Shown here: positions 14,519 through 42,427 of the stretch, piece after piece
Position numbering within the stretch: the first letter of the stretch is position 1
Layout: every line of letters begins with the position of its first letter
DNA from: Trichoplax sp. H2
Lineage: Eukaryota
Direction: 5' to 3'
Assembly (NCBI GenBank): GCA_003344405.1
Contig: NOWV01000157.1
Coordinates: 124,001 to 181,416 of the forward strand
DNA: 57,416 bases
Program-made: the position numbers and the translations under genes
The notes under the pieces: model-generated
Told to the model about the DNA's origin: nothing
What the model saw: only the letters and a program-made list of their open reading frames with translations
Database searches by the model: none

Positions 14519-15597
14519 ATGGGTAAGTTGTTACTATTGATTGTAAACTTTCAATCATTCTTTATATTTTACCATTATTTCTACAATAGCTGTAAACTTT
14601 GAAAACAGCTTTTGTAGACAAAGCAGCAGTATGTGATATCAATCGCTAACATCATAGTATACAAAGTTGTTTCTCCGAAGTGAACAATATTGAATTGTAC
14701 TGCTATAGCTCGGCATACATCAATCTAGTAGTTTGCAGTTATATTACCTGCTTGATTGAATAAAGTATCTTCCCAGCACTGTCCATGATTAATAATTAAT
14801 ACCTTAAATGCGCCTACGTACAGGATATCGTTGATGATTTTCATTTGTAGAAGATAAAAAAAGTTCGATATTATCATCAGATTAACCAAAATTGGATATT
14901 TGTATTTGACTTAGTTGCAACCTGTGCGATTGGACCAATTCAAGAAGCTTTCCCTGACAATTGGACGTGGAACATTGACGACAAATCTCCTGATGTCGAA
15001 TTGTGTTCGCGTCGAGAAGGCGCCTACTTTTATACTGATCCTGTTATTGATAGCACTGGCACAGCGGCAGTACGTGGCAGTAAAGGCTTTGATAGAGGTC
15101 TCCATTATTGGGAAGTTACATTGTGTGAGCCAACATTTGGATCATCAGTAATGGTTGGCGTTGGCACTAAGAAAGCCAAATTACGCACCAACAACTACGA
15201 ATACATAGATATATTAGGTACTGATTGTGAAAGCTGGGGCCTAAATTATAAAGGTTATCTATTCCATAATGGTAGACCTACTAAATTCACCGATACATTT
15301 TACGCTGGAACCACTATTGGAGTATTGTTAGACATGAATGTCGGTAAATTAAGTTATTTTAAAAATGGTTCATTCTTGGGAACTGCATTTGACGACTTAT
15401 TGGATATTAATTCTGAACTCTATCCGATGATCGCTTCAACAGCTGCTGAAAGTGAAATGCAATTGGGCATACGCGGATCGAAATTTGTAAGTCTAGAGGA
15501 TCTTTGCAGACGGACTGTACGTCGATATGTGGACTACGCAAATATTGACAAGTTATGCCTACCTCAACCCATTAGAAATGAACTTAAGGTGCTGTAA
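14519..15597 (+). CDS. SPSB3: SPRY domain-containing SOCS box protein 3 (228 aa)
   Basis: ATG-G exon 14519-14522 (donor GTAAGT) plus exon 14915-15597 gives 687 nt. The protein has WTWN..DKS, GTAAVRGSKGF..GLHYWEV, MVGVGT, LGTDCESWGLNYKG, IGVLLDM..GKLSYFKNG, LYPMIASTAA and a C-terminal SOCS box (SLEDLCRRTVR...LCLPQPIRNEL), all typical of SPSB3. Confidence 0.92.
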
Positions 15598-20581: not shown

Positions 20582-21649
20582 TTAAGTTGATAATTGATAG
20601 GAGTGATGACGAAATCGTTTACAGCATTGGTTGGAAAGATTACTTAAAGACATTTTAATCGCAATTTTAATATCAGCAGTATAGAAAGCGAATAAGATTG
20701 GATTAACAGCAGGATAAGAAAAGGCGACGAATCGTAATAAATGAATAATATTCAGTTCAGTAGTGGTATATATTAAACCAGGGCGAACATTTAGTATCAT
20801 AAAGGTAATGGCAAAAGGTAAATAACATATTAAGAATAAAGTCACTAAGATAATAATTTGTCTAGCGGCTTTAATATTGTGCCTATTGAGCGATAATTGA
20901 TGACCATGGCCGTCATTTTCGCCTTGCATACGTCGTGCATGAACATTAACGATATAAAAGATACGAGCATAGCATGGTAGAAAGGATGCTAATGGCAAAA
21001 TTAATAAACATGTAAAAATGATTGTTAAGTAAACCTGTTGTGATACACGTGCATCTTCATTTTCAGCGATAATATATACCGCACATCTTGAGCTGTTATA
21101 TTGAACAAATGTCATTAAAGGTAATGCTGCTATCGCCGCAGTCAACAGCCATAGACAAATCAAGATACATACACTCACTTTGTGAGATAAAAAATATAAA
21201 TTACGAAATGGAAATTCAATAGATAGGTAGCGATTTAATGTTAAGATACAAATATGAAAATTTAAATTGACAAGAAATGATGATCCTAAATAGGGCATAA
21301 TTGAGCATGGAAATGGATATTGCATCATGTGATTATTACCAGCCTTAATATGGCGAGGTAAAACGTAGAAAATAGAGGATAATAAACTGCCAATAAACAT
21401 ACTAATCATGTAAGGTGCATGTGGAGTTTGGCGTAATTTTCGATACCAGCCTATGATTAATAGTATACCTAAATTGGTCAAGATGGTAGTTCCACCAGTA
21501 ATACACCACATTACTTCGATTAATGTCGATTGGATTACTATGAGGGAATCATTATCAGCATGATTAGATAGTGGCTTTTCAGGTGTATCTTGATGCATAG
21601 TCATGTTGGTGATCATTGTAGCAGAATGATAACTATGATTAAGATTCAT
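20582..21649 (-). CDS. Intronless rhodopsin-like (class A) GPCR, 355 aa, orphan
   Basis: Single ORF with seven hydrophobic segments: TM1 TN, TM3 LTLNRY, TM4 W...ALP, ECL2 Cys, TM5 P...CY.RI, TM6 FLICYLPF and TM7 NPILFAFY. N-terminal N-glycosylation sequons are present. Confidence 0.93.
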   Translation of the reverse strand: MNLNHSYHSATMITNMTMHQDTPEKPLSNHADNDSLIVIQSTLIEVMWCITGGTTILTNLGILLIIGWYRKLRQTPHAPYMISMFIGSLLSSIFYVLPRHIKAGNNHMMQYPFPCSIMPYLGSSFLVNLNFHICILTLNRYLSIEFPFRNLYFLSHKVSVCILICLWLLTAAIAALPLMTFVQYNSSRCAVYIIAENEDARVSQQVYLTIIFTCLLILPLASFLPCYARIFYIVNVHARRMQGENDGHGHQLSLNRHNIKAARQIIILVTLFLICYLPFAITFMILNVRPGLIYTTTELNIIHLLRFVAFSYPAVNPILFAFYTADIKIAIKMSLSNLSNQCCKRFRHHSYQLST

Positions 21650-22727
21650 TTCTCTTCTTCTTTTTTCTCCTATTACGAGATTCCTTACTTTGATAGATTT
21701 AGAAAATTATTAAGTCAAATTTTTTATTTTATGATATGAAAAGTTATCACCAAAAGATAATTGAAAGGAATGACGATTTCGTCAACTGAGGCAATAGTAT
21801 CTGTAATCTCATCTTAATCATGGTTGACTATATCAATCATTAACAATAGCTAATATTATTTCCATCAATTTTGAATAGTTAATATTGACTAAACCGGTTA
21901 GAAAACCCTTTGAAATTTTATTATTATCTATTGAAATAAGCTGATTGAAAGGTGATAGACATATATTATCTTTATTTTCTATTTATTGTTCTACAATCTG
22001 CTAATTTTAATCTACTTGCAAACAACATACTTACTTGCTGCTATTGAAATTGAACAACAAATTTTTAAAGTTCATCAAAAAATTAAATTCTGCCATAATA
22101 AAGGTACGTAATAAATATTGTTCCTTTAGTAAGGCACGAATAAATATACGAAGCTGATCTACATAGATTAGGACACCATTAAAGATTCACCTTTGAATTG
22201 AATAAGAAATTGAATATAATTGGTATTATGATGGTTTTAAGGGATTAGTTTATTAAACTTGATAGTAATGTAGCAGAAATAGAGACAGTTCGTTCCAAGT
22301 ATATGCTTTTAAATTTATTTTCACCCAAAAATGAGTAAGAGAAGATTCATACAATTGTAGATAGTTATATTTAATCATTGCAATAAATCAATAAGTAATG
22401 ACTTACCATGACAAGAATGATTAATTATTATTTATGAACTATAATGAGCTACTTTTTGCATAACTATGCAATAATATTGGATGTTTTCATTAACGACAGT
22501 ACTAAATTCAGCAAGATAAAGTATTTTTAATGAGATTCCATTCATTTGAAACTCGGCAGAAATTATTACTTTTTAGATAGAATTATCCCTTAGAAAAACG
22601 ACCTTTTTCCATATCTAAAATTAATTTTATACATTGAAATCATAGTCTAGTATACTGTAAAAGTATTTAATATATGAATAAGTTGACAAAATATAAATCT
22701 ATTATTCCAATTTCGGTCATAAATAGA

Positions 22728-28782: not shown

Positions 28783-31700
28783 ATGAGCAATTGGGTAGCG
28801 CCAACAACACATCATAATCGATCTTTACCAACGTTCAATCAAGGGATGGAGTACGAACTTGATCCAAGGTAATAAGAGTCCAACCAATTTAATCATCATC
28901 ATGAACTTTCCTTACTATCCTTTCATCCATACTCAACTTGGTTATTCAACTTGGTCAATCCATGGATGACCAACTCATTCCTTATTCTTTCTTTTATGTT
29001 CCTTTTTTTATCTCTTATTTTATTCCTCAATTTGAGATCATTTCAAAAGAGAGATTTTCTCTTGATCGCAATCATACTAGTTGTCTTGTAAGGATTTTGT
29101 AACTGTTCTCGTTGGCCAGTTGATTGCATTGCCTATCAACCCCAATGGAAAGGATACAACATGCCTAGGCTACATCATCAATTCAAAGAATATTCTACTA
29201 GTACAGGAGTGGATGAACAGTAGAAATAATTGTATAAAAAAACGTCTTGTCAGATAGCCTAGCCTATTTTTCAATAGCATCGTTTTCTTGCAGTATAAAA
29301 TAAACGTGTATATCGATAGTAAGAAAAGGCCATGCTAGTCATCATACGCTTCCAATCGATACGACAGTCTAGACTAATTCCATGAGGGTAATAAAATGAT
29401 TGCTGATGACAAATGAGTCAGAGGAAAGACAATCGCCGTGACTACTACTTCCATCCAATTCTTGCAGTTCTGTTCACTTTGATTCTTCCATTTTGCTATC
29501 TTATCGTCTAATCTATTGTTTTCCTGATGTTGATTTTTTAACGATCATCCATGGCGGATGATGGTAACAGAAATGTCGGCATTCCTGGCAGTGTCAAATT
29601 AACCAAGGATGCCAAAAATTTAATTGGTATCAGTATTGGAGGTGGTGCGCCGTTATGCCCTTGCTTATACGTTGTACAAGTCTTTGATAATACACCTGCT
29701 GCTAAAGATGCCACATTAAGTGCCGGCGATGAAATTGTCGGAGTCAACAACATCTCGGTCAAAGGCAAAACTAAAGTAGAAGTAGCTAAAAATATTCAAG
29801 CAATCAAGGTAGGTTCCCCCCAAGAAAATAATATCCATACCGTATAGCAGTATATATCTTGGTTGTATTCTCTGGCGATAGAGGTAGAACAAGCATTGTT
29901 GAGATTTCTCGATGAAAGTAATAGTTGTAAAAATATACTTATAGTAGACCAGTATATCTTGGTTGTATTCTCTAGCCATAGAGGTAGAACAAGCATTGTT
30001 GAGATTACTCGATGAAAGTAATAATTGTAAAAATTTACTTATAGTAGACCAGTATATCTTGGTTGTATTCTCTAGCGATAAAGGTAGAACAAGCATTGTT
30101 GAGATAACTTGATGAAGAAAACAGTTGTAAAAATATACTTATAGTAGACCAGTATATCTTGGTTGTATTCTCTAGCGATAGAGGTAGAACAAGCATTGTT
30201 GAGATAACTCGATGAAGAAAACAGTTGTAAAAATATACTTAATAGTAGTCCAGTATATCTTGGTTGTATTTCTCTAGCGATAGAGGTAGAACAATCATTG
30301 TTAAAAGAACTCGATGAAGAAAATGCTTGTTAAACAAACACGTTCCAATTTTTCACCCCTTACAGTATATTGATTCCATTCATATCAATTGTAATCGTCA
30401 TAGTTATATAAAGTATGCCGAGTATTCCTTTTAATCCAAAGGAAAAAATGAAAATGTTGAAAATTACCGTATGGATAGTTGCCTACATCTGGTAGTAAAT
30501 GTCAATACTGTATGCAGAATACAATTTTACCGTCCAAGTGGATTATGTTAACGCATCCGGGTAGATTATGATTATTGCTGTATCAATCTTTTGCTATCTA
30601 CTTACGCTAGTAAAAACTCAATCTTCAAGTCAGAGCTTCTTGACGACTCCATAATTTTATCGAATAGCGATATACGAGTCCATTTCATTGATTAAATTAA
30701 ACAAATGATATTACATGGTATAACTACTGTGTAATAGTAGCATTGTAGCGTACAACGGCATTTGAAATTGGATACCGTAAATTGTTTAGCGAATAGACGA
30801 GATGAAAATGATACAATTAGAAAAGGGGAAAACCTCTATCAACATTCTCTTAGTAGAATGATGAGAACGTGATGTAGCTTGTACTGTAAATGGTACAGTT
30901 TGCCTTGAATGATAAGGTTAAAATATGTACTTGAGGATGTCTTGAATCAGACTTCATTGTCAATTCAATTACTTCAATAGGGTGAAGTAACCATAAATTA
31001 TGTTAAACTACAAGGCGATCCAAAGCAAGGAAAAACACTAGACATAGGTAAGGAAGAGAGTACTAGTTCAATTCATAATCGGTGGTAGTATTATAAACCG
31101 CCAATCTACTGAATACAATAACTACAATAGTTGAAATTTGCTTAAACGATCATCCTTCTTGTAAGTTCTTTTCCAAAGTAAGCTTTATTATAGCTTTTTG
31201 CATGGCATGATGAGACTATTCTATATTATTAATAAATAGGCTGTAGTTTTTAATAGTGCGATAAAGTTACCCAAATTCCTAACTTTAACTACCACAAAAT
31301 TGAAAAGTTATAAACTACTGTTCAAGTGTGAGAGACGTGTAATTTTTGCATTTATAATGAAATGGCAATTAACATGCTTCTTAGACCTCTACAGTTCTAA
31401 TATGAATAGATGGACATATGGTTACGTTACTATTTTACTGTACTGTATTAGCTTCTACACCATCGCACAATGGTCATGTGGCTGACAAGATGTACTATAT
31501 CTTCTACGATAATGTAAACTACAAATCTTTTTTCCGATATTATTGATGAACCATGGTTGTTCTAACAAATACTTGAAGATTGATTTACCCATTAGTTCGG
31601 ACACACGTTATTATGGGTCTTATCTAAAGTAAAATCATTTTTGAGCTATTTAGCATACTATAGTATCGACTGTGGCATGATATTAACTAGGTGTTTTGAT

Positions 31701-34116
31701 TTTAGTGATATTACATTGCTAAGATATCAGTTTGAAAGATCGTACACAGCGATTATAATTAGCATCTAATGGCTGCTGCTAAATATTACTTTTATCATAA
31801 CAGGTAGTAATAATTCATGTAAAAGCGCATCGTATAGATCGTATGCTCGATTGTCCCAAAATTAAGATATAATTAACATTTTTCAAGATTTCATAAAGCA
31901 TGTCTATTCAATGTATATAAAATATGATTAACTAGATAATTTCTCTAGTAATTTTGGTTTAAATGACAATTTATGAATTGGATATGGTCCACGTATGCTG
32001 CATAAATGCACTTTTCTTTCATCATCATTTTTTGAACCTAATATTTTAAAATAACTTACACATGACGAAATATTGTTTTTGTGTAGTGTCATCGAATCAC
32101 ATGCAATACTAAATAAATGTACACTTTTTTTACAGTCTTGAAAAAAGTCAAACATCGCATTGTAGAAAATATGAGTTCTTCCACTGCTGACTCTCTTGGC
32201 TTGAGCAGAGCTATCTTATGCAATGGTACGTATGATTTTAAACGGTTAAAAATCAATAAAGTCAATAGGATGTTGTATCGATCGTTTCACTAATGATAAC
32301 TTGCGATTGTAGACACCCTTGTCAAGCGTTTGGAAGAATTACAACAAAATTCTAGTATTTATTTAGGTGAGTTAGTCTTTCACATTCTATTGAAAGACAA
32401 TTATCATGTTGAATCGCACTAATTCATAATCTGCCTTGATTATAGGCTTGATCGAGAGAGCTAGAGCAATGATGAAAAGTACAGCTAAGTTAATTGCTGC
32501 TCATAAAGGTAAAATATATGCAATGAATAAAGTCTTTGCCTGATTGGCACTTACTGTGAATATCAGGAAATAAAGTAGTTATTGGTAAGAATTTCCTTAC
32601 TCTCATCTATAGCATTTGGCGAAGCTTTTGCTGCAATCGGTGTAAAAGAACCACAAGCAAATGCGAGCTTGGCTTTCTCAAGATTTGGAGAAGCTCATCG
32701 GTGAGATTATGTAAAATAGTATTTGTCACCACCTTATTATTTACCCTGTAATATGCTAGCTTTAAAGCTGTAAGTCATCGTGACTAGAAATTAGGTAGCA
32801 TTACTCGATCATGTTAAGTTAAATTTGTCATTTATAACGCTATTATACTGTAGTAATCTAGAGAGATTTGGAACGCAGCTGCTTCGAAACATTGCACCGG
32901 TAAGGACCAGTCAACACTACAGTTGTAGCAAAATTATCTGTTAATTTTTTTTAAATTATACTGCTACCAACATGAAAATATGAATTTGCTTTATGTTTCA
33001 GATCGTGACTGACCTGATGACCTACTTGAGTAAGGTTAGTGCTCAGGCATCAATCTTACATTATTACGCTTGTAGTAATTTATAACTTGCTGATGATAAT
33101 ACAACTTATCCATATGTTTCTAAATGTATTCTAACTTTGAAAACGATTGATTGTCAATTAATTACCTTCATATCGATCGTACTTTGGCTCAGGCAATTCC
33201 GGATACTCGGTTGACGATTAAGAAATACGCCGATGTTAAATTTGAATATCTGGTATGAAAAGGATTGCTCTTTGAATGACTGTAATATTATAACAATTCT
33301 AGAAACAGCGAAATGTTGACAATGTTCTTGGCTTATTAATTACTAGGCTTATTGCTTAAAAGTCAAGGAAATGGATGATGAAGAATATGGTTACGCGGTA
33401 TCGATAATTTCAAAGCTATATTTTCACTTGTTTAAAGGAGGCTTATTGACGTAGTTATTAACCACTATACTCATATCTGTAATATTCGTTTAGGCGATGC
33501 ATGAGTCTTTATACCGAGTTGAAACGGGCAATTACGAATACAGGTGACTTCAAGATGATGTTTACATCAGGAACTGCTATATTAAATTAGAATTAGTTAC
33601 ATTAAAGGATGTTTAGATTTCGTATGTTGTACATTTTCTAACTCTAAATTGTACTTAGGCTGGTACTAAGATGCCGACATGACGCTAGAGTACGATTTGC
33701 GAAACTTAGGCAAGACGTCATGGTCAAATTGGAATTGCTTGACCATAAGCATGGTAAAAAAAATAATTATCGTCTATGTGGTTGATTCACATATGTAATA
33801 TCTCTATAAAATTTTAACAGCTATCTACTGTATTTCCACTACTCAAGATAGATAGCGATATTATTGTATACGTTTGAAGATGATATAAAGTAGAGTAATG
33901 TTGCCGTATTTTTAGGTGATGTGTTATTTACTTATCATTTTTAACATTGCAGTTCAAGATTTATGCACACAATTACGCCGTCTAATAGGCAGTTTAACAG
34001 AGTACCATCAAGATTGCATAAAAGAAATGGAAGAAACAGATATCTTTCCAATTGAAATCGATTTAAATAGAGCTTTACAGAAAACTGCTCCGACTACAGA
34101 AGTTGAGGCTCAATAG
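28783..34116 (+). CDS. PICK1: PRKCA-binding protein PICK1 (PDZ + BAR/Arfaptin domain)
   Basis: 14 exons: 28783-28868 (alternative ATG at 28846), 29571-29808, 30981-31047, 32136-32225, 32313-32366, 32446-32508, 32613-32700, 32854-32899, 33002-33034, 33193-33252, 33347-33397, 33494-33543, 33659-33753, 33953-34116. Motifs KDAKNLIGISIGGGAPLCPCLYVVQVFDNTPAA, LKKVKHRIVENMSSSTADSLGLSRAILCND, AIPDTRLTIKKYADVKFEYLAYCLKVKEMDDEEY and YRVETGNYEYRLVLRCR are diagnostic. Confidence 0.97.
29848..30333. repeat. Intronic tandem repeat, ~4.8 copies of a 100-bp unit (PICK1 intron 2)
   Basis: CAGTATATCTTGGTTGTATTCTCT...AGAGGTAGAACAAGCATTGTTGAGAT recurs at ~29848, 29950, 30050, 30150 and 30251. Confidence 0.95.
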
Positions 34117-35940
34117 GATGCATAGGATCGTGTCTAATGTATGCTTTGATAAATTGGATATAGCCAAATATCCTGGTCGCTAGGATCGAAATTGATTGGT
34201 ATATTTTTATCAAGTGTTTGAGAAATCTAATCTAATTGAATTTGTAACGACATGCGATGTGTTGTTCTGATGTGACAAATCTTATTAGCTCATAAACGAA
34301 TATTTATAATACTTTTCGTGTATATCGAGTTCTATACAAAGCCCAATATTAATAGAGGAAATACAGTATATTCCGAGCATTATGAGAATGATAAAAGCGT
34401 ACTTAGTTTATAATGTAATATACATTGGAGCAATGACCATACATGGTAATTTATCGTATTGTGTTACGGTTATTACAAGTACGTACCCGATATGTATTAG
34501 TATGCTACTGCACAAAATGTTAAGAAATCAGAAATGCATTTAACGTATATAATATTATAATTATAGTAATATTAAAATCAACTGTCTCGCAATAGAAATG
34601 ATGTAATTATAATTGCAAAATTACGCACGTAGGTGAGCAATATTAATATTTACTGTTAGTAAAACCCACGAAAGCTACTTGGATAGTATTTAACTAATTT
34701 TTAGAAAAGTTAGACCTTGCTCTATTTCGTAATTCATTGCCTGCTGCATTCAGAAGAATGTAATTCGAATAAACTAGTTCGTAATCTACTTAATCATAAG
34801 ACGAAAAAGATCTTTATGTGAGAACACCTTGTTCAGCTAATGTTGGTAATATTGATTTCACTCTGCCAATGATGCAAGGACACTTTGACACGTTTCTAAA
34901 ATGCAGCTTATGTATTTGTAGCGTTGTTCGGAAGAAAACTTTTTATTTCTTCTCAGGTTAATAGTGCAAATATTAATGGTAGAGTAACGATTAGTTCACA
35001 TTTGTTCGATAAAATATTAAATGTTGAATAATAATTATTATAATGGTTTCGAATTTTAAAATCTGCAGTTAATGATATACGGTAGGTATGAACATAGCTT
35101 TTTTTGATCAAAGGATTTTCCTCAACCGTTTGTATGCTGTTTCGTTGGTTTAGTTATATATAATTAGACAAAATCAGTGAATGCCAATCAAATCAAATCA
35201 ATCATGAGACAAAACAATACTAGATAAATCTAGCAAAAACAAGTGAATTTAAATAGCTATAACAATTATCAACCCTTACTACCGTGATCACTATGCGGCA
35301 GGGTAATACACAGAAGCAGATTCAATCAATAGATTTAACTGTCATTAATACTGTACTATGTAAATGCAAAGGATATAGTGAGTAATTTTCTGGTGTGTTT
35401 GAAGAATGGGGCCCGTTCTTGCCAATAGCATACGAATATTAAAGTCCATGGAGTAAAACCATGATTAACAGCTACAGGGTATTTATTTCACTTTTTATAT
35501 ACTGGTAGGCGAAAAATACTGAAGAAGTAAATTTATGTGCACGTAAGAATAAGGAATAGTTTAAAATTTCGGTATATCCAAAGCTTCATGCTTAATTTCA
35601 TAGGACCTTGGCCAATACTTGTAAAAATACGATTGCATGCAAAGCTAATAGTCTTCAGTAGTGCAGGGAGTATAATCCGGCTTGAAATAACGGAAGAAAT
35701 CTCCTTAACCATTTGATCTTTCCTACCGTATATGAATGTGTAGATGCGAAGTTAGTTGAAACTGTATTTAAGTGTTAAAGAATTTGACGAGCTTGTGTAC
35801 AGCTAGACTTCAGTAGCATCGAGCTGAAATAGACAAGTTAAGCAAGGATAGTGAGTGAGAGACGATATTTAAAGAGCTGCGAGTAAGTGCAATGTCCACA
35901 GTGTCTAGTGTATTTGTAAAACGTGCATGTTATCTAGATG

Positions 35941-36582
35941 TTAAACTTGTTTCATTTGAAGTTGCACTTTCAAGCAATAATGGTCGGAAATAAAATTGCC
36001 TTTATCGACACGGAAATCCTTTAACAACCATTCGTTGTTACGGAGATAGACACGATCATATCGACATTTCCATTTAAAAGGGCGATCTACCCACCAACCT
36101 TTATTTTCGTAGCCGTCCATGGTAAAGCGATGGTCAGCAGGTTGGCCAGCGGTCAGAAAAGTGTCATCTAATTCAGAAACATTTTCATCATTTCTCATAT
36201 TTGTGTCACCAGCAACGACAACATACTCATGATTACGCAACTTTGCCATAACCCAGTTAGCACATTTCGATCTTAGAGATTTACTCTCCTTAAATGGTGG
36301 CCAATGAACACCACAAATTAGCCAGCGATCATCGATCAGAGCGCAAGCAGTACCATGTGGCCACTCATCTCCAAACGGATGAGCCATCATGCCTTGTCGA
36401 ACATAGATATGTGTCTCACCGCAATGTGACCGCTGACCGACGATAAATTTAAATCCAGCTTGGGTAATTTCCTTACGACTGGCAGGGTTCGCTTCTTGTA
36501 ATACTACAACATCTTGTTGATGAAGAAATTGTGCGAATCCTTTGGATTGGCTCACATTCCATGTGGCTAAATTGTAACTCAT
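35941..36582 (-). CDS. Intronless endonuclease/exonuclease/phosphatase (EEP) family protein, TDP2-like catalytic domain only (213 aa)
   Basis: ATG at 36582 to TAA at 35941. All EEP catalytic motifs occur in order: ATWNV, VVVLQE, ICGVHW, VVAGDTNMR, FTMDGYEN, CRYDRVY, ISDHYCL. GDTN.R, T.D...N and CR.DR resemble the TDP2 subgroup. There is no N-terminal UBA domain. Confidence 0.85.
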   Translation of the reverse strand: MSYNLATWNVSQSKGFAQFLHQQDVVVLQEANPASRKEITQAGFKFIVGQRSHCGETHIYVRQGMMAHPFGDEWPHGTACALIDDRWLICGVHWPPFKESKSLRSKCANWVMAKLRNHEYVVVAGDTNMRNDENVSELDDTFLTAGQPADHRFTMDGYENKGWWVDRPFKWKCRYDRVYLRNNEWLLKDFRVDKGNFISDHYCLKVQLQMKQV

Positions 36583-36998
36583 GATCGTGTTGATGATGGA
36601 CAGTCGTGAAAAATACCAATCAAACCTTTTCTTGTTTTGCAACAATAAAAGCAATCCCGTTAACTCCTATTAGATAATATTAATATCAGTTTGCTCTTCC
36701 TGCAACAGTGGCCAACGTCCAGATTGATCAGTAGCTAAGACAGTTGAAATCTAGAAATGATTCTTAATAAACGGCAGTGGATGACCAGATTTTTTGCTAT
36801 GAGCTCATTTGCATACTTGCACCTTTGCTCATCTCGTCGGTGTTTATGCCGTGTCTATTTTGAAAATTTGAGAAAGGCCGCTGGTGCACTATTTCATCTC
36901 TCCATCAGCGCATGAGTATTAGCCCGAACCATTTTGCATAAATTACTTGGCGTGAGATTGGACGATTTCTAGATTTTATTTTTTAGAGATGTCAATAA

Positions 36999-39051
36999 AT
37001 GTCTAATGTATCAGTAGGACTGCTTAAACGAAGTGGACAAGGTAATTGATGCAAAATGGTTAGGACTAATGAGCCTATCATAAATGAGACCATACAACTG
37101 GACGAGTACTGTATTGGTATTTGCTGTATTGTATTCTGCTTCATTACTGTAGAAACTAGAGGAAAACTTGCATGGTCCTTAAGCAATACCTTAACTAATT
37201 TCACGTAGTAATCAACTACTTTTATCGAGTCATCCAATCAATGCTAATTTTATAAAGCAGATTTACAACCAAGGAAGAGATGTAAATAAATACTGTATTG
37301 GCTTGCCTAGGTAGAAACTAGAACAAAACTTGTGTGGTCCTTAACCTATACCTTAACTAATTTTACAAAGTAATAAATTACTTTTATCAAGTCATCCAAT
37401 CAATGCTAATTTTATAAAGCAGATTTACAACCAAGGAAGAGATGTAAATAAATACTGTATTGGCTTGCCTAGGTAGAAACTAGAACAAAACTTGTGTGGT
37501 CCTTAACCAGTACCTTAACTAATTTTACAAAGTAATAAATTACTTTTATCAAGCCATCCAATCAATGCTAATTTTATAAAGCAGATTTACAACCAAGGAA
37601 GAGATGTAAATAAATACTGTATTGGCTTGCCTAGGTAGAAACTAGAACAAAACTTGTGTGGTCCTTAACCTATACCTTAACTAATTTTACAAAGTAATAA
37701 ATTACTTTTATCAAGTCATCCAATCATTGCTAATGTTATTAAGCAAATTTGCGACTAAGGAAGAGATGTAAATAAATACTGTATTGGCTTGCCTAGGAAG
37801 AAACTAGAAGAAAAACTTGTGAGGTCCTTAACCAATACCTTAACTAATTTTACAAAGTAATAAATTACTTTTATCAAGTCATCCAATCATAGCTAATTTT
37901 AATAAGCAAATTTGCGACCAAGGAAGAAATGCAAATATACTCAGTGTGACTAGATACAAGAGATCTAGTGATCCAAGGTATGACCATGGGCTACGAGAAG
38001 AAAACCTTCTAGTAGTCCATGCTAAGGCTCAATCATGTAGATTTGCTGGCAGAGAAGATTGCTGAGATGGTAAGGCAGTTTTAACTTTCTTCATCGTTTC
38101 GTTAAGTAGAGTACAAACCGGATATCATATGAGAAATGTACAAATGAATGGCCAAGAATAGAAGTAACACTCACCAATCTGTAACGACTCAGCAGATGAA
38201 CTTCATTCAGCAATACTGTAAACTAAACACAAACATGCGATAGTAGATGTTATGTCTATGTTGTAGTCTTTATTGCTGATACAACACTAACGTTAGCATT
38301 GATTATAATTATCAAGACCTAGATATGTTTTTTTACATAGTGTAATTGTCTTAAATTAGCAATTTGTACTTGAAATGACTGCATAAGATAGACAGCATGC
38401 AAGGGTATACAGTACAAAATAAAACTAAGGAGGGAGAGGGCTCAGAAGATTGTAGAGCCTTTCCGTCTTGACCTTTGATTGAATCATGTTACTCAGTGGT
38501 ATCATATCGGCTTTGGTTTAGCTTTGAGTTCAGGTATTTGTTGGTAACTTCTAATATTAACTACATAAATTGGATAAATTGATGGATCTACAAGTGCAGT
38601 TATTATTAATTGCTGTATCGTAACATTGGGCGCCATAGTACAGTAATTGGTAGTCCGGCATTGTGCCGAATGCAGTCAAATAAGATTACTTTTAGTCATT
38701 ATAATTGCTAGGCCAGATTTATACGTTTATGTGATTTCTGCTAGCTAGTATATGTAAGGGTGTCGGTAAATTAGCGAATGGAGCAGTCTATAGTACTTAG
38801 AAGTCATGCTGGCTCTCGATTCGCTTCGATTCTCTGAGGTTGATCGATTTATTATTGACAATAAATAGTTCAGCATTATTAGTCCAGCGCAATAAATCAA
38901 CTACGATTCTATTTTAGTATTGCTAGGTGCATGCACTGAGCTATCGGGATCGTATACACAAATTTCGGAAAGTGTTGGAAATGGTACGTTCGGAGTGATT
39001 ATGGAATGGATTCCTAGCTTCGGGAGCTACTTTCCATGCAGTAAACTATAA
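36999..39051 (+). pseudogene. Possible decayed death-fold + TKL/tyrosine-kinase-like gene
   Basis: Phase-compatible exons 36999-37041 (MSNVSVGLLKRSGQ) and 37954-38069 (...KKTF**SMLRLNHVDLLAEKIAEM). Death-domain-like LNHVTQWYHIGFGLALSS at ~38479-38533. Kinase Gly-loop-like GVGKLANGAVY at 38759-38791. Subdomain IV-V-like INYDSILVLLGACTE...FGVIMEWIPSFGS at 38896-39051. In-frame stops and a frameshift are present. Confidence 0.35.
37149..37940. repeat. Tandem repeat, ~4.9 copies of a 162-bp unit
   Basis: G(T/A)AGAAACTAGA starts at 37149, 37311, 37473, 37635 and 37797, an exact 162-bp period. Inner copies are near identical. Confidence 0.96.
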
Positions 39052-39395
39052 ACTTGACTGCGATAAATATATATATTTAATTGACCAAAAATCATTATGA
39101 AATGTAGGCTAAATATATAGAATTTGTTATATTTATAGATTACGAAGTACAAATAAATCTGCACAGAGGAAAGAATGCTACAATTTAATATGTAAATTCT
39201 TGGTATAATGGTAATACAGTCATTAAATGCAAATTGGAGGCTTGTAATTTAGCACTCTAATATGATTTCTATTAGTTGCATTTGACATACCACAACATTT
39301 ACGAAAGATTATGTCTTAAATCATGAATAACAATTCAATTTAATCCATCGTCAAGCAGTCACTGTAAAGATAGGAAATTCAGAGCGATCCAATTC

Positions 39396-41984
39396 CTAGT
39401 CTTCTTCGGAGAACAGTTCCATTTTAGCCGAAGGCAAACCTCGAGATGATTTCACGCTATTGCTCCTCTTTTCCTTTCTTGAAGGTTTTACAGTACTATT
39501 TTCTCTCTTTGTTGCGTTCATTTTATAACCGAACTGTTGACGAAGATTATAACGTGTAGGTGAACGAGTCATCCTCTCTGGTGTTGCCTACAATTACAGT
39601 TTAGAAAAATCTTTATGCGCGTAGTCTAGTAAATTATATGAGTAGTTATCATGACCAGACGTATATCACTCTTATGTATGTAAAATCGATTGGCAAGGAT
39701 TGAATGCAATCAATATATGCTAAAATCTTAAATCAAAAAATCGACAGACTAATTAATGGTTTGGTTTACAAAGTCATGCGGTAATTCTCTACACCGCGGG
39801 CTAATTATATTACTAATACAAGCAAATTGAAAAATATAGGCTTACCTCGCCATTCGGTATCTTTTTAGTATCATTAACTACAGATTTCGGTTTTAATCTT
39901 CCTGATGTTTCTGGATGTACAATCGCTCTCATCTCAAAATCACTTTCACAGTCATCAGAAATGCCACTGTCACGCAAACTGGATAAATTTTTACTTTTGG
40001 CTACAACTTGATGCTGTTGATTTCTTTTCATCTGCTTCCCTAAATGTTTGTTTAAAATCTTAGCTGAGGAGTTTTCATTAGCGGAATCCACATCTGGTAA
40101 TGTATCTTCTTTCTCAGGGAAGAGTAACTTTTTATTTAGCAAAGCTTTGATTTCCACATTTTGCTGCGTAATTGCATTAGGGGAATCGATGTCTGATAAT
40201 AATCTACCATCTTCCTTAGCTAAGGGTGATTTATTGTTTAAGAGAGCTTTGATTTCCATATTTTGTTTCGTAATTTTTTCCAGTAAAGCATTATTAATTT
40301 TCTTATAATCGCGATACTTAATATAGGAAATTACAAGAATCATAGTACAGATCCCAATGAAAATTCTCCTACCGATCCATGTTGTGCTATAAATTGTATC
40401 CTATAAGCGTGAAATGCAATAAAATTGTAGCTAGAATAATACTAAATGCAAAATTACTCAGCTATAGATTTTCTATATATTCCTTTCTAACCTTGATTTT
40501 GTTATCGACAGGTCGATAACTGTGTAAAATCGCTGTCAATACTCGTTCAAATATTACATTGATCGTTAAAACTAGATATAACCAAATTCTTGCATTCGCA
40601 GTGGACGGTGTCGTAGTTAGCAAATACGCTAATGAAACACCAATCACATAATAAATGCTGGTATAAATTGTAGAAAATTCTCCCAGAAGTAGCATTTGGA
40701 GCGAAGTCAAATATCGTAAATTATTCCCTAAACTACTAAATGCTGCTCGAATTGTTTGATAATTCTCTTGAGCCTTACTGTTAGTCTTCGCCAAAATATC
40801 AGTCATATCTTCAGTAGAATTTTTGATAGATTCTTTCAAAAGTCTTTCATTTTGAATTATTAACTTTTGATTCTCTAAGGAATTATGTTGCTTTTGTAGC
40901 AGCTACAAGGATATAAAAACAGGTAGAGCATGTATATTATGATTTAGGGTACGGAAAAATATTGCAAATATGCTGTTCAAAGCTAGTATCCAAAGTACTT
41001 TATTGATTATAAGACATGTAAAATCAAGCTATAGTCTTTTGTAGTAGTATCATAAAGAGCTAATGTATCAGCAGCAACGATGATTTTATACTCGTATATG
41101 TAAAACTGCTCCAGCTGTTATAAATCGGGTCCAGTTTGCAGAAGCATGCACGTATTTTAACCCAAGTTTACAACAGCAATTTTTAGTAATTCTTTCAATC
41201 TTGTATCTTTGCTCAAACAAGTTCTTAAAATCTCTCTGGTCAAGTCAAACTTTCTCTTAAATACCGTAATATCCAAATTACCTAATCTAGCGTTCTTGCA
41301 TGGCTAATGAAAGTATTTCAGCTACAACCGTACCGTCTAGTACTATTATACTGTAGAGATCGGTCGATAATCGATGAAATATAATCAAGAAAACGATCTT
41401 ATATGATATAATTATATTATAATTATATAATTATTACTAACCTGTTCATGGTATTGCAACGACTTCTTTAGTTTCTTAGCTGTTTCGAGGGAAGAGATCG
41501 ATAGCTGATTAATAATGAACTCAGTATTTTCTTGCCATTGCTGATTTCTGATGAAAAAACAGATGCTTATAGAATTTGTGAAGAATTCAGTGTAGATGAT
41601 AAAATCTGCTTTATCCATAGTTTGGGTGCATTCTTCAATAGACTGATTATTAGAGCACGGGAATATCGGATGTCCAGATTGTGCTAGATGACAGTTAGTG
41701 AGAGAAATAGCTAGCCTGGATTGATCGATTGAAGAGAGGTGCTTGCAGCCACGCTGAAATTGCATCAAGGCTTCGTGCCAGCATTGTGCTGTCTCGCTCC
41801 ACTTGCGTAATTGACTTAGATAGTTACGTCCATGTTTTATATTTTCACTAGACACAATTTCGAAAGCTGGTTGTTCATATTTATTACTCGAAAAATCGGA
41901 ATTACAAACAAGTGACAACCCAAGCAAAATTATGGCTCCTAAAATTTCTTTATAACCATGACGGAGTATTTCGGTAAGTGCCAT
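39396..41984 (-). CDS. GEX1: KAR5/GEX1/Brambleberry-family nuclear envelope fusion protein (566 aa)
   Basis: Four phase-0 exons: 41984-41442, 40902-40492, 40400-39846, 39587-39396 (TAG). Signal peptide, then the family Cys-rich domain CWHEALMQFQRGCKHLSSIDQSRLAISLTNCHLAQSGHPIFPC...ECTQTM...YTEFFTNSISICFFIRNQQWQ, a coiled coil, three TM segments (..YLLTTTPSTANARIWL..) and a cytoplasmic tail with RYNLR. Confidence 0.88.
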
Positions 41985-42427
41985 TTCTGCAGTAAGATGG
42001 AAGAGAGGGATTTTAAAAAGTTCCAGCTACAAAGTCATCATGTGGTGTAATGCATGCTGCATAAAACTAAAATTAATCATGATTAGTGCTCTTAGTTCAT
42101 GCTTTTCGGAAGAAGTATATGCCGTATGACTTATAAGCTAAATCCGTAGTATTTGCTATATCTACAGTAAGGTATTGCCCAAAAATTAGACTTGATGAAG
42201 TATCAGGTGTCAACTTATTTCTAACTGTAAATAATTATTTTGTAATTTTAATTTACTAAGTTATCATAAAGGCAAGCTTTGCACGAAGATTGAAAAACAT
42301 CCTTTATGACAGTGCTTTGAAGTACAGGTCATGTGCAGCTCTACCTAGGTTCTGTGCAGACATTTTTGCCTTAAGGTGCTAAAGATGATATTACTTCGCA
42401 TGCTATATTTGCATTACGGTGTATCTT

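What the first reader, a model, noticed from the sequence alone, without database searches (positions are those of the whole stretch)
35941..36582. Intronless, minimal TDP2-like EEP enzyme: candidate horizontal or viral acquisition
Seen: a 213-aa single-exon ORF among intron-dense genes, with the complete catalytic set (N, E, H, GDTN, D, SDH) but no UBA domain, and unusual motifs SHCG and HWPPFKES where animal TDP2 has HLES. Established: TDP2 removes 5'-phosphotyrosyl adducts (topoisomerase II, viral VPg). Inference: from memory, SHCG/HxxPFK-type EEPs are more typical of algae and protists than of animals, so this could be a gene captured from food, a symbiont or a large DNA virus and used in DNA repair or antiviral defence. 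A retrocopy or an APE domain from a LINE is the alternative, but no reverse transcriptase is adjacent.
Basis: partly seen in the sequence, partly recalled or inferred. Interest (0 to 1): 0.7.

Follow-up and report, generated by a model that had tools for sequence, protein, structure and literature searches.

The report
Stripped-down TDP2-like DNA-repair enzyme gene
An animal genome carries an expressed, intron-free gene for a very small enzyme related to the DNA-repair enzyme TDP2, and its nearest identifiable relative lies on a virus-like DNA fragment rather than in other animals.

Summary
Window 35941-36582 (-) is an intact 213-aa ORF. It has an EEP fold (PF03372), all catalytic positions and no room for a UBA domain.

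RNA contigs of three runs cover it without a splice, while the neighbouring gene is spliced in the same runs.

By sequence and by fold the closest solved proteins are all TDP2. It is not a canonical animal TDP2. It carries HWPPFK instead of HLES, plus SHCG and GDTNMR. These motifs mark a separate lineage that includes green algae, a choanoflagellate, Asgard MAGs and giant-virus contigs.

A clade with animal TDP2 is rejected (p-AU 0.0015). In the tree it groups with two 79-81% homologues, an unnamed 37-40% protein and a protein on a 64.5-kb IMG/VR viral contig (99/90).

Relatives are very rare: 88 hits among 1.84 billion representatives. Base composition matches the host's exons, so any transfer is old.

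Lateral origin is plausible but unproven, and its direction is unknown. LINE, retrocopy and contamination readings are not supported. Whether a canonical TDP2 also exists in this genome could not be tested.

The parts
35941..36582 (-). Single-exon coding sequence of the 213-aa TDP2-like EEP enzyme (P0001), stop codon included
   Evidence: ORF list and translation. PF03372 at E 3.5e-13. AlphaFold2 model with mean pLDDT 91.8 and pTM 0.91. The best fold matches are TDP2.
36583..36861 (-). 5' leader covered by RNA contigs. It holds an in-frame stop at 36667-36669 and three short out-of-frame upstream ATGs.
   Evidence: RNA contigs end at 36712 (X16), 36831 (X15, followed by adaptor-like letters) and 36861 (X14), with no joint. 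Stop-to-stop frame limit. Upstream ATGs at 36832, 36814 and 36808 open frames of 11, 5 and 3 codons.
34606..35940 (-). Probable long 3' untranslated region. Its far end abuts or overlaps the 3' end of the convergent plus-strand gene.
   Evidence: Contigs X16 (34606-36712) and X15 (34977-36831) run through it without joints. AATAAA stands on the minus strand at 35487 and 34947. Contigs carry no strand information, so the extent is inferred.
36910..37070 (.). Short repeated element just upstream of the gene; not shown to belong to it
   Evidence: Several RNA-run contigs match only this stretch, with 3 to 7 mismatches in 40-72 bases, and have unrelated loose ends on both sides (tables 7 and 8).

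Best explanation
This is a genuine, transcribed, single-exon nuclear gene. It encodes a stripped-down member (catalytic domain only, 213 aa) of a non-canonical lineage of the TDP2 branch of the EEP superfamily.

Likely mechanism (inferred). It is a Mg2+-dependent phosphodiesterase that removes 5'-phosphotyrosyl or similar bulky 5' adducts from DNA ends, such as those left by trapped topoisomerase II.
- E30 holds the metal.
- D126 activates the water.
- N9, N128 and H201 bind the scissile phosphate.
- D176 orients H201.
These roles are assigned by analogy with recalled TDP2 and APE1 chemistry.

Origin. It is not a derivative of animal TDP2. It belongs to a very small subclade, marked by a shortened loop after strand 1 and an ENxxWW motif. 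The subclade holds two close homologues, one unnamed protein and a gene on a virus-like 64.5-kb contig. This points to an old lateral exchange involving large DNA viruses or their protist hosts. The exchange predates the split of the three close homologues and its direction is unknown.
For: Shown:
- Intact ORF with all catalytic columns.
- Unspliced RNA contigs in 3 runs of 3 studies (X14, X15, X16), in which the neighbouring gene is spliced and 37446-40000 is uncovered. This argues against DNA carry-over.
- The stretch is held by 20 of 24 listed runs, from 9 studies and two species labels. The protein is recorded on a 9.7-Mb contig.
- TDP2 is the closest solved family by sequence, by profile and by fold, with TMq 0.74-0.82.
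- Motif classes among 208 relatives: 114 carry HxxP only (100 of these with GDxNMR, 75 SHCG-like); 37 carry HLES only (1 with GDxNMR, 0 SHCG-like); 4 carry both; 53 carry neither. The window protein is in the first class.
- Relatives of this class are fused to DNA-end or repair modules: zf-RanBP, zf-GRF, HIRAN, Fpg+UDG and RNase_T.
- Tree: the canonical clade scores 100/99 and the animals within it 97/92. The window protein plus its two homologues score 100/100, adding P0003 96/81, adding P0005 99/90, and adding P0043 with a giant-virus MAG protein 93/83.
- A clade with animal TDP2 is rejected (delta lnL 62.9, p-AU 0.0015). A clade with the choanoflagellate protein is rejected (p-AU 0.016).
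- ENxxWW together with short WN-to-LQE spacing occurs in only 6 of 208 proteins, which are exactly this subclade.
- P0005 is encoded 100% on IMGVR_UViG_3300047277_000125. It sits beside two VP39-like PF01358 ORFs in dense, intron-free coding.
Against: - Enzyme activity and substrate are untested.
- The Trp of the conserved (F/Y)TWD motif is Met155 here. If that Trp contacts DNA, as I recall for TDP2, specificity may differ.
- The closest outside relative, P0003, has no known source.
- The 64.5-kb viral record shows no match to MCP, A32, VLTF3 or PolB, and CheckV puts it at 23% complete. Its viral nature therefore rests on IMG/VR's label and on the PF01358 ORFs.
- The branches are long: 1.21 for the stem of the trio, 1.5 for P0005 and 2.13 for P0043. 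Several rows have odd composition.
- Holding the trio together with the whole 19-row HLES clade is not rejected (p-AU 0.064).
- GC 0.417 and GC3 0.35 equal the host's exons, so there is no compositional trace of transfer.
- The 3 differences seen inside the ORF among RNA contigs are all non-synonymous: N183S, V165A and R116G.
- A published report of TDP2-like genes shared by anthozoans, sponges and choanoflagellates (PMC4878875, passages read) makes vertical descent with losses a live option.
Confidence: 0.55

Rival explanations
1. Vertical inheritance. This reading makes it an ancient eukaryotic paralogue of TDP2 (the HxxPFK/GDxNMR lineage). It would have been present in the holozoan ancestor, kept and shortened in this animal lineage, and lost in most other animals. 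Giant viruses would have picked up their copies independently from protist hosts.
For: The wider lineage includes a choanoflagellate (P0013, Salpingoeca punica), green algae and Asgard MAGs. That spread fits an old eukaryotic gene. PMC4878875 (passages read) reports a TDP2-like gene shared by Anthozoa with sponges or choanoflagellates and missing from many Bilateria. Composition is fully host-like. The gene is conserved in three close homologues at 79-88% identity.
Against: An exclusive clade of the trio, P0003 and the choanoflagellate protein is rejected (delta lnL 32.2, p-AU 0.016). The trio shares rare characters with P0005 from a viral contig.
Confidence: 0.3
2. A fast-evolving true orthologue of canonical TDP2 that lost its UBA region and its introns.
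For: TDP2 is the closest solved family. A placement next to the whole HLES clade is not formally rejected (p-AU 0.064). No canonical TDP2 of this genome could be shown to exist.
Against: A clade with animal TDP2 is rejected (p-AU 0.0015). The protein has the HxxP, GDxNMR and SHCG motifs of the other lineage, whereas none of the 37 HLES-only proteins is SHCG-like and only 1 has GDxNMR. Its well-supported sisters, P0003 and P0005, are of the same non-canonical type.
Confidence: 0.07
3. A remnant APE-type endonuclease domain of a LINE, a retrocopy of a spliced parent gene, or contaminating DNA from food or a symbiont.
For: The gene is intronless. A short repeated element lies just upstream, at 36910-37070.
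Against: - LINE-1 endonucleases rank 47 and 50 by fold, with TMq 0.68-0.69 and 12% identity. They score E 1.9e-5 against the family profile, versus 1e-30 for TDP2.
- No reverse transcriptase or other mobile-element domain was found in 20 open frames of 80 aa or more tested in and around 28-46 kb.
- There is no run of 8 or more A after the ORF.
- No prokaryotic relative of the subclade was found in 185,579 species' genomes by pattern scan.
- The gene lies between spliced animal genes and has host composition.
- It is present in 20 runs of 9 studies.
Confidence: 0.04

Closest known systems
Canonical TDP2 (TTRAP/EAPII; solved for mouse, human, zebrafish and C. elegans)
   Same: EEP fold with the best structural and profile matches. 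It shares the TWN, LQE, GDxN and SDH motifs (motif names recalled) and the (F/Y)T.D...N...R(F/Y)DR(I/V) block between them.
   Different: No UBA-type N-terminal domain; the named animal TDP2s carry PF22566 and PF14555. HWPP replaces HLES, SHCG replaces the D-G-Y-F stretch of zebrafish TDP2, GDTNMR is present, and Met stands for the motif Trp. The catalytic domain is about 40 residues shorter. It lies outside the animal clade.
Non-canonical HxxPFK/GDxNMR/SHCG TDP2-like lineage (for example Tetrabaena socialis 'Tyrosyl-DNA phosphodiesterase 2' P0134, Chlorella variabilis P0008, Salpingoeca punica P0013, Asgard MAG proteins P0018 and P0038)
   Same: All three lineage motifs and all invariant columns. 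Many members are likewise domain-only proteins of 220-260 aa.
   Different: Only 25-34% identical. The window protein lacks the roughly 16-residue insert after TWNIS that most members have, and it has ENKGWW. None of this lineage has been characterised, to my knowledge (recalled; not searched exhaustively).
Giant-virus EEP / '5'-tyrosyl-DNA phosphodiesterase' proteins (BFVD: Edafosvirus, Pithovirus, Clandestinovirus and others; IMG/VR loci L001, L002, L003)
   Same: Same fold, with TMq up to 0.78. L003/P0005 is a well-supported relative (99/90). L001 carries SHCG, HLSPF and GDTNMR.
   Different: Named NCLDV proteins are only 16-19% identical. L002 is of the HLES type. P0005 is 28% identical by BLASTP and has two inserts.
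EEP and TDP2-like DNA-repair genes of patchy or lateral origin in corals (Bhattacharya et al. 2016, PMC4878875)
   Same: This is a precedent for non-bilaterian animals holding non-canonical EEP/TDP2-like genes. One was assigned to algal donors and one is shared with sponges or choanoflagellates (passages read).
   Different: I could not obtain those sequences, so it is unknown whether they belong to the same lineage. The figure supplements and supplementary files were not seen.

Membership tests
EEP superfamily (Pfam PF03372) | Score above the curated cut-off over the whole domain | tested here: met
   50.3 bits against a cut-off of 24.5, profile positions 1-225 of 225.
TDP2 branch of EEP (broad sense) | TDP2 is the nearest characterised family by sequence profile and by fold | tested here: met
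   All 9 PDB sequences at E <= 1 are TDP2. The family profile scores TDP2 at 1e-30 to 2.4e-26 and the next protein at 2.8e-11. Foldseek ranks 1-42 of the listed rows are TDP2.
TDP2 branch of EEP (broad sense) | Catalytic motifs TWN, LQE, GDxN and SDH (motif list recalled from the TDP2 literature) | tested here: met
   ATWNV, VLQE, AGDTN and ISDH are present. The columns are invariant or nearly so in the family alignment.
TDP2 branch of EEP (broad sense) | 5'-tyrosyl-DNA phosphodiesterase activity | not testable with these tools
   This needs a biochemical assay.
Canonical (metazoan-type) TDP2 | HLES motif after the central strand | tested here: not met
   HWPP aligns to HLES. 99 of 113 proteins retrieved with the canonical profile have an HLES-like motif.
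Canonical (metazoan-type) TDP2 | N-terminal UBA-type domain | tested here: not met
   The protein begins at strand 1. The transcript is unspliced and has an in-frame stop upstream. None of 27 upstream open frames has a Pfam hit.
Canonical (metazoan-type) TDP2 | Placement inside the animal TDP2 clade | tested here: not met
   The tree places it elsewhere. The AU test gives p 0.0015. A placement beside the whole HLES clade is not rejected (p 0.064).
Non-canonical HxxPFK/GDxNMR/SHCG TDP2-like lineage | The three lineage motifs occur together | tested here: met
   SHCG, HWPPFK and GDTNMR are present. The motif classes are counted.
Non-canonical HxxPFK/GDxNMR/SHCG TDP2-like lineage | Groups with lineage members in a tree | tested here: inconclusive
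   It groups firmly with P0003 and P0005 (99/90). How this 8-row group joins the other HxxPFK rows and the HLES clade is unresolved (69/81, open forks).
LINE APE-type endonuclease | Adjacent reverse transcriptase, and best similarity to L1-EN | tested here: not met
   No RT domain was found nearby. L1-EN is far weaker than TDP2.

The most novel reading that the evidence does not exclude
An early ancestor of this animal lineage captured a minimal TDP2-like gene from a large DNA virus, or from that virus's protist host, and has kept it under selection. It now serves either as the animal's only 5'-adduct DNA end-cleaning enzyme, having displaced canonical TDP2, or as a defence factor that unlinks protein-primed or VPg-linked viral genomes.
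Probability: 0.15. Interest if true: 0.75.

Novelty: new variant of a known kind. Interest (0 to 1): 0.45.

Why it matters
TDP2 is the main enzyme that removes topoisomerase II adducts, and picornaviruses use it to unlink VPg (established knowledge, recalled). All characterised TDP2s are of the HLES type.

This gene is an expressed animal member of a second, uncharacterised TDP2-like lineage, in its smallest form of 213 aa. That makes it a convenient subject for asking what the minimal 5'-tyrosyl phosphodiesterase is, and whether the HxxPFK/SHCG lineage has the same substrate.

Its well-supported kinship with a gene on a virus-like contig, and the extreme rarity of its subclade, make it a concrete candidate for gene exchange between a virus and an early-branching animal. 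If so, it would add to the patchy DNA-repair genes already reported in corals.

It is not a new kind of system, and the gene model itself is already in public protein databases.

Tried and rejected
- Own-genome search for a canonical TDP2: impossible, because no genome is held. The canonical-profile search listed the best 120 of 127 hits among 8000 scored candidates. None could be tied to the window's organism, but names are withheld for the window's proteins, so this says nothing.
- Source of P0003: not found in viral contigs or JGI metagenome contigs. Cluster look-up gives only 'Logan, contig of 4756 bases'.
- Metagenome scan with the subclade alignment: 218 pattern matches, none a relative.
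- Prokaryote genome scan: 50 pattern matches, none a relative.
- Viral scan with P0043: none.
- Second viral scan with the subclade alignment: only the same contig came back, as L004.
I asked only for family matches instead. MCP, A32, VLTF3 and PolB gave no match. On a fragment that is 23% complete this proves nothing.
- ESM Atlas: the nearest clusters are bacterial and archaeal EEPs at 0.94-0.96, with 149-166 shared features. I treated these as leads only. HMMER found no close bacterial relative.
- Earlier findings of this scan: nothing by sequence, by place or by words.
- Literature: 'TDP2' + 'Trichoplax' gave 0 papers. 'tyrosyl-DNA phosphodiesterase' + 'giant virus' gave 1 paper, a TDP1 reference only. 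Other searches gave nothing specific; I saw only their listings.
- Uncovered stretches in RNA contigs (37446-40000) are no proof of silence.
- X17 looks like DNA or very shallow data, with short contigs over introns, and was not used as RNA evidence.
- The label 'DEDD-exo fusion' that I put on L001 in the tree came from my own reading of its N-terminus. Pfam gave 0 families for that ORF, so I drop it.

Full report
WHAT IS THERE

Window 35941-36582 on the minus strand is an ATG-to-stop ORF of 213 aa. The stop-to-stop frame ends at 36666, so an in-frame stop lies 28 codons upstream of the ATG. Pfam finds one family above its cut-off, PF03372 (Exo_endo_phos), E 3.5e-13, covering residues 6-201 and the whole profile.

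In a 13-sequence alignment with relatives, Q29, E30, H53, H93, P96, R104, D126, N128, D140, T154, N160, R174, D176, R177, S199, D200 and H201 are invariant, and N9 is nearly so. An AlphaFold2 model built on that alignment is confident, with mean pLDDT 91.8 and pTM 0.91. It dips only at residues 161-170.

IS IT A REAL, EXPRESSED HOST GENE?

The 1.2-kb stretch around the ORF is held by 20 of 24 listed public runs, from 9 studies and under two species labels. The identical protein is on record on a 9.7-Mb contig.

I laid contigs of four runs on 33000-40000.
- In X14 (recorded as RNA) and in X15 and X16 (guessed to be RNA), the plus-strand neighbour is spliced at five GT..AG introns between 33032 and 33952. 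These runs therefore hold real transcripts.
- In the same runs the ORF is covered by contiguous pieces: X16 34606-36712, X15 34977-36831, and X14 35407-35765, 35815-36401 and 36372-36861.
- There is no joint anywhere in that span, and 37446-40000 is uncovered.
- X17 has short contigs over introns and was not used as RNA evidence.

The dominant transcript is thus unspliced. It contains the in-frame stop upstream of the ATG and has a long 3' tail, with AATAAA at 35487 and 34947. Contigs cannot exclude rare spliced isoforms. None of the 27 minus-strand open frames of 30 aa or more in the 3.2 kb upstream has a Pfam hit at E <= 0.1, so there is no UBA exon to splice to.

Composition is native. The ORF has GC 0.417 and GC3 0.35. 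The neighbour's internal exons have GC 0.416 and its introns 0.289. The neighbours are ordinary animal genes: 7tm_1 GPCR, SPRY+SOCS box and PDZ. The GPCR frame (374 aa, 20582-21706) is also one long open frame, so a single long exon is not unique in this window.

WHAT FAMILY?

- By sequence, the only PDB proteins at E <= 1 are 9 TDP2 sequences, the best at 2e-4.
- A profile of the family alignment hits 13 distinct TDP2 sequences at 1e-30 to 2.4e-26. The next protein (3teb) scores 2.8e-11 and LINE-1 endonuclease 1.9e-5.
- By fold, all listed Foldseek rows from rank 1 to 42 are TDP2 of mouse, human, zebrafish and C. elegans, with TMq 0.74-0.82 and 18-21% identity. LINE-1 endonuclease appears at ranks 47 and 50, with TMq 0.68-0.69 and 12% identity.

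So 'TDP2-like' is right.

It is not a canonical TDP2. H93-W-P-P aligns to H-L-E-S, and SHCG aligns to the D-G-Y-F region of zebrafish TDP2. I classed 208 retrieved relatives by motif.
- 114 have HxxP(F/S/G/Y/N) only. Of these, 100 also have GDxNMR and 75 an SHCG-like motif.
- 37 have HLES-like only. Of these, 1 has GDxNMR and 0 are SHCG-like.
- 4 have both, and 53 have neither pattern.
- Of 113 proteins retrieved with a canonical profile, 99 are HLES-like and 11 match the HxxP pattern.

The window protein belongs to the first class. Named members of that class are:
- Chlorella variabilis P0008.
- Tetrabaena socialis P0134, which its source calls 'Tyrosyl-DNA phosphodiesterase 2'.
- Salpingoeca punica P0013.
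- Two Asgard MAG proteins, P0018 and P0038.
- One Deltaproteobacteria MAG protein, P0123.

Members of this class are fused to zf-RanBP (P0023), zf-GRF (P0030), HIRAN (P0051, P0082), Fpg+H2TH+UDG (P0064), RNase_T (P0036) and a UBX-like domain (P0066). That company is expected of a DNA-end repair enzyme. Canonical animal TDP2s retrieved (molluscs, nematodes, an insect, an annelid) carry the UBA-type domains PF22566 and PF14555, which the window protein lacks.

HOW RARE, AND WHO IS CLOSEST?

HMMER against 1.84 billion representatives gave only 88 proteins at E <= 1e-3, 6 at <= 1e-10 and 2 at <= 1e-30.
- P0002 (79% identical, 214 aa) and its cluster mate P0090 (81%) are close homologues from unnamed assemblies. 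The two are 88% identical to each other, and all catalytic residues are kept.
- Next is P0003: 40% by HMMER and 37% by BLASTP, E 6.7e-33, 231 aa, from a 4.7-kb Logan contig of unknown source.
- Everything else is 34% identical or less over comparable spans.

In a 58-row maximum-likelihood tree (LG+C20+F+G4 PMSF, 265 columns):
- The HLES clade is recovered (19 rows, 100/99), with animals inside it (8 rows, 99/92; 11 rows including oomycetes, 97/92).
- The window protein with P0002 and P0090 scores 100/100.
- That trio joins P0003 (96/81), then P0005 (99/90).
- It then joins P0043 plus the giant-virus MAG protein of L001 (93/83).

P0005 is encoded at 100% identity on IMGVR_UViG_3300047277_000125, a 64.5-kb IMG/VR record.

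Two rare characters support the subclade independently of the tree: a short TWN-to-LQE spacing of 20-22 residues together with an ENxxWW motif. They occur in 6 of 208 proteins: P0001, P0002, P0090, P0003, P0005 and P0091.

AU tests:
- The trio with the 8 animal TDP2 rows: delta lnL 62.9, p 0.0015, rejected.
- The trio plus P0003 with the choanoflagellate protein: delta lnL 32.2, p 0.016, rejected.
- The trio with the whole 19-row HLES clade: delta lnL 20.5, p 0.064, not rejected.

Caveats on the tree:
- Branches are long: trio stem 1.21, P0005 1.5, P0043 2.13.
- Seven rows have odd composition.
- The deeper forks are open (69/81).
- Four partial rows (P0140, P0276, P0280, P0082) were left out before the build.
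- The last two tested groups were chosen after I had seen the tree.

HOW VIRAL ARE THE VIRAL RELATIVES?

- L003, the end of the 64.5-kb record, has dense, unspliced ORFs. They include two with PF01358 (the poxvirus VP39-type poly(A) polymerase regulatory subunit family), a hybrid histidine kinase with a receiver domain, and a C2H2 protein.
- The whole record gave no match to NCLDV capsid, A32, VLTF3 or B-family polymerase, and it is rated 23% complete. Its viral nature is therefore likely but not proven.
- L001 is from a contig named as a giant-virus MAG. Its EEP domain is the C-terminal part of a 579-aa ORF with SHCG, HLSPF and GDTNMR. The ORF lies near another with seven EsV-1-7 cysteine-rich motifs.
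- L002, from a 376-kb IMG/VR contig with Erv1/Alr and ankyrin genes, carries an HLES-type enzyme.
- In BFVD the best fold matches are giant-virus EEPs, some named '5'-tyrosyl-DNA phosphodiesterase', at E about 1e-12 and 16-19% identity.

TDP2-like enzymes of both types are thus common in giant viruses, but the named ones are not close to the window protein.

ORIGIN

The data exclude a recent transfer: composition is host-like and there are three diverged homologues. They also exclude descent from animal TDP2.

They favour, without proving, an old lateral exchange that links this animal lineage with large DNA viruses or their hosts. The direction cannot be read from an unrooted tree.

Vertical descent of an old eukaryotic paralogue with many losses remains a serious rival. 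A coral genomics paper reports a TDP2-like gene shared by Anthozoa with sponges or choanoflagellates and missing from many Bilateria. It also reports a separate EEP gene assigned to algal donors (PMC4878875; I read passages of the Results table and the HGT section). I could not obtain those sequences, and the supplements were not seen.

LIKELY MECHANISM (INFERRED)

The protein is probably a single-metal EEP phosphodiesterase that works on 5'-phosphotyrosyl or similar 5' adducts of DNA. Its catalytic residues and their proposed roles are given under Best explanation.

The block FTMDGYENKGWWVDRPFKWKCRYDRVY aligns with the TDP2 segment that I recall forms the DNA-binding grasp. The model's only floppy part lies there. 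Met155 replaces the Trp that nearly all relatives keep, so substrate handling may differ.

With no UBA or other partner domain, recruitment would have to be by diffusion or through the catalytic domain itself.

EVIDENCE ON SELECTION IS THIN

The three differences seen inside the ORF among RNA contigs are all non-synonymous: N183S, V165A and R116G. All lie at variable positions. The roughly 1-kb 3' tail shows 11 substitutions and 2 indels.

VERDICT

The TDP2-like, UBA-less, intronless and non-animal-type reading is supported. Lateral or viral origin is plausible at roughly even odds against ancient vertical descent. LINE, retrocopy and contamination are not supported.

This is a new, minimal variant of a known enzyme kind, of moderate interest.

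Noticed in passing
window 36910-37070: A short element just upstream of the gene is matched by several unrelated RNA-run contigs, with 3 to 7 mismatches in 40-72 bases and differing loose ends on both sides. It is probably a dispersed repeat.
   Followed up: no
window 29716-30329 (minus-strand frames): Three overlapping open frames repeat near-identical peptides (…LNNACSTSIAREYNQDI…). This suggests a tandem DNA repeat next to the PDZ-domain exon at 29542-29844.
   Followed up: no
window 39813-42026 (-): Three long minus-strand open frames of 195, 146 and 204 aa have no Pfam family above cut-off; there is one weak HEF_HK hit (E 1.8e-4). They are probably exons of one gene of unclear family.
   Followed up: partly
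window 20582-21706 (-) and 14851-15597 (+): A 374-aa rhodopsin-type GPCR frame and a 248-aa SPRY+SOCS-box frame are each one long open frame. Long single exons are therefore not rare in this window.
   Followed up: partly
P0064 (1011 aa, unnamed Logan contig): One protein combines Fpg/H2TH glycosylase, a UDG-superfamily domain and a C-terminal HxxPYK-type TDP2-like EEP domain. It is a three-enzyme DNA-repair fusion.
   Followed up: no
P0051 (498 aa; 11 cluster members) and P0082 (910 aa): These are HIRAN-domain fusions with the TDP2-like EEP domain. P0082 also carries a Bles03 domain.
   Followed up: no
L001 6834-8573 (+): This giant-virus MAG ORF of 579 aa has a long Asp/Asn repeat and a Cys-rich stretch before the SHCG-type EEP domain. 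Pfam assigns nothing to it at E <= 0.001. The next ORF but one has seven EsV-1-7 cysteine-rich motifs.
   Followed up: partly
L003 1490-3499 (-), 4340-6076 (+), 6203-7627 (-): The IMG/VR contig that carries the nearest identifiable relative also encodes a hybrid histidine kinase with a receiver domain and two VP39-type (PF01358) proteins.
   Followed up: partly
window 34575-34977: The 3' ends of the convergent plus-strand gene (contigs end at 34575-34890) and of the EEP transcript (contigs start at 34606-34977) abut or overlap.
   Followed up: no
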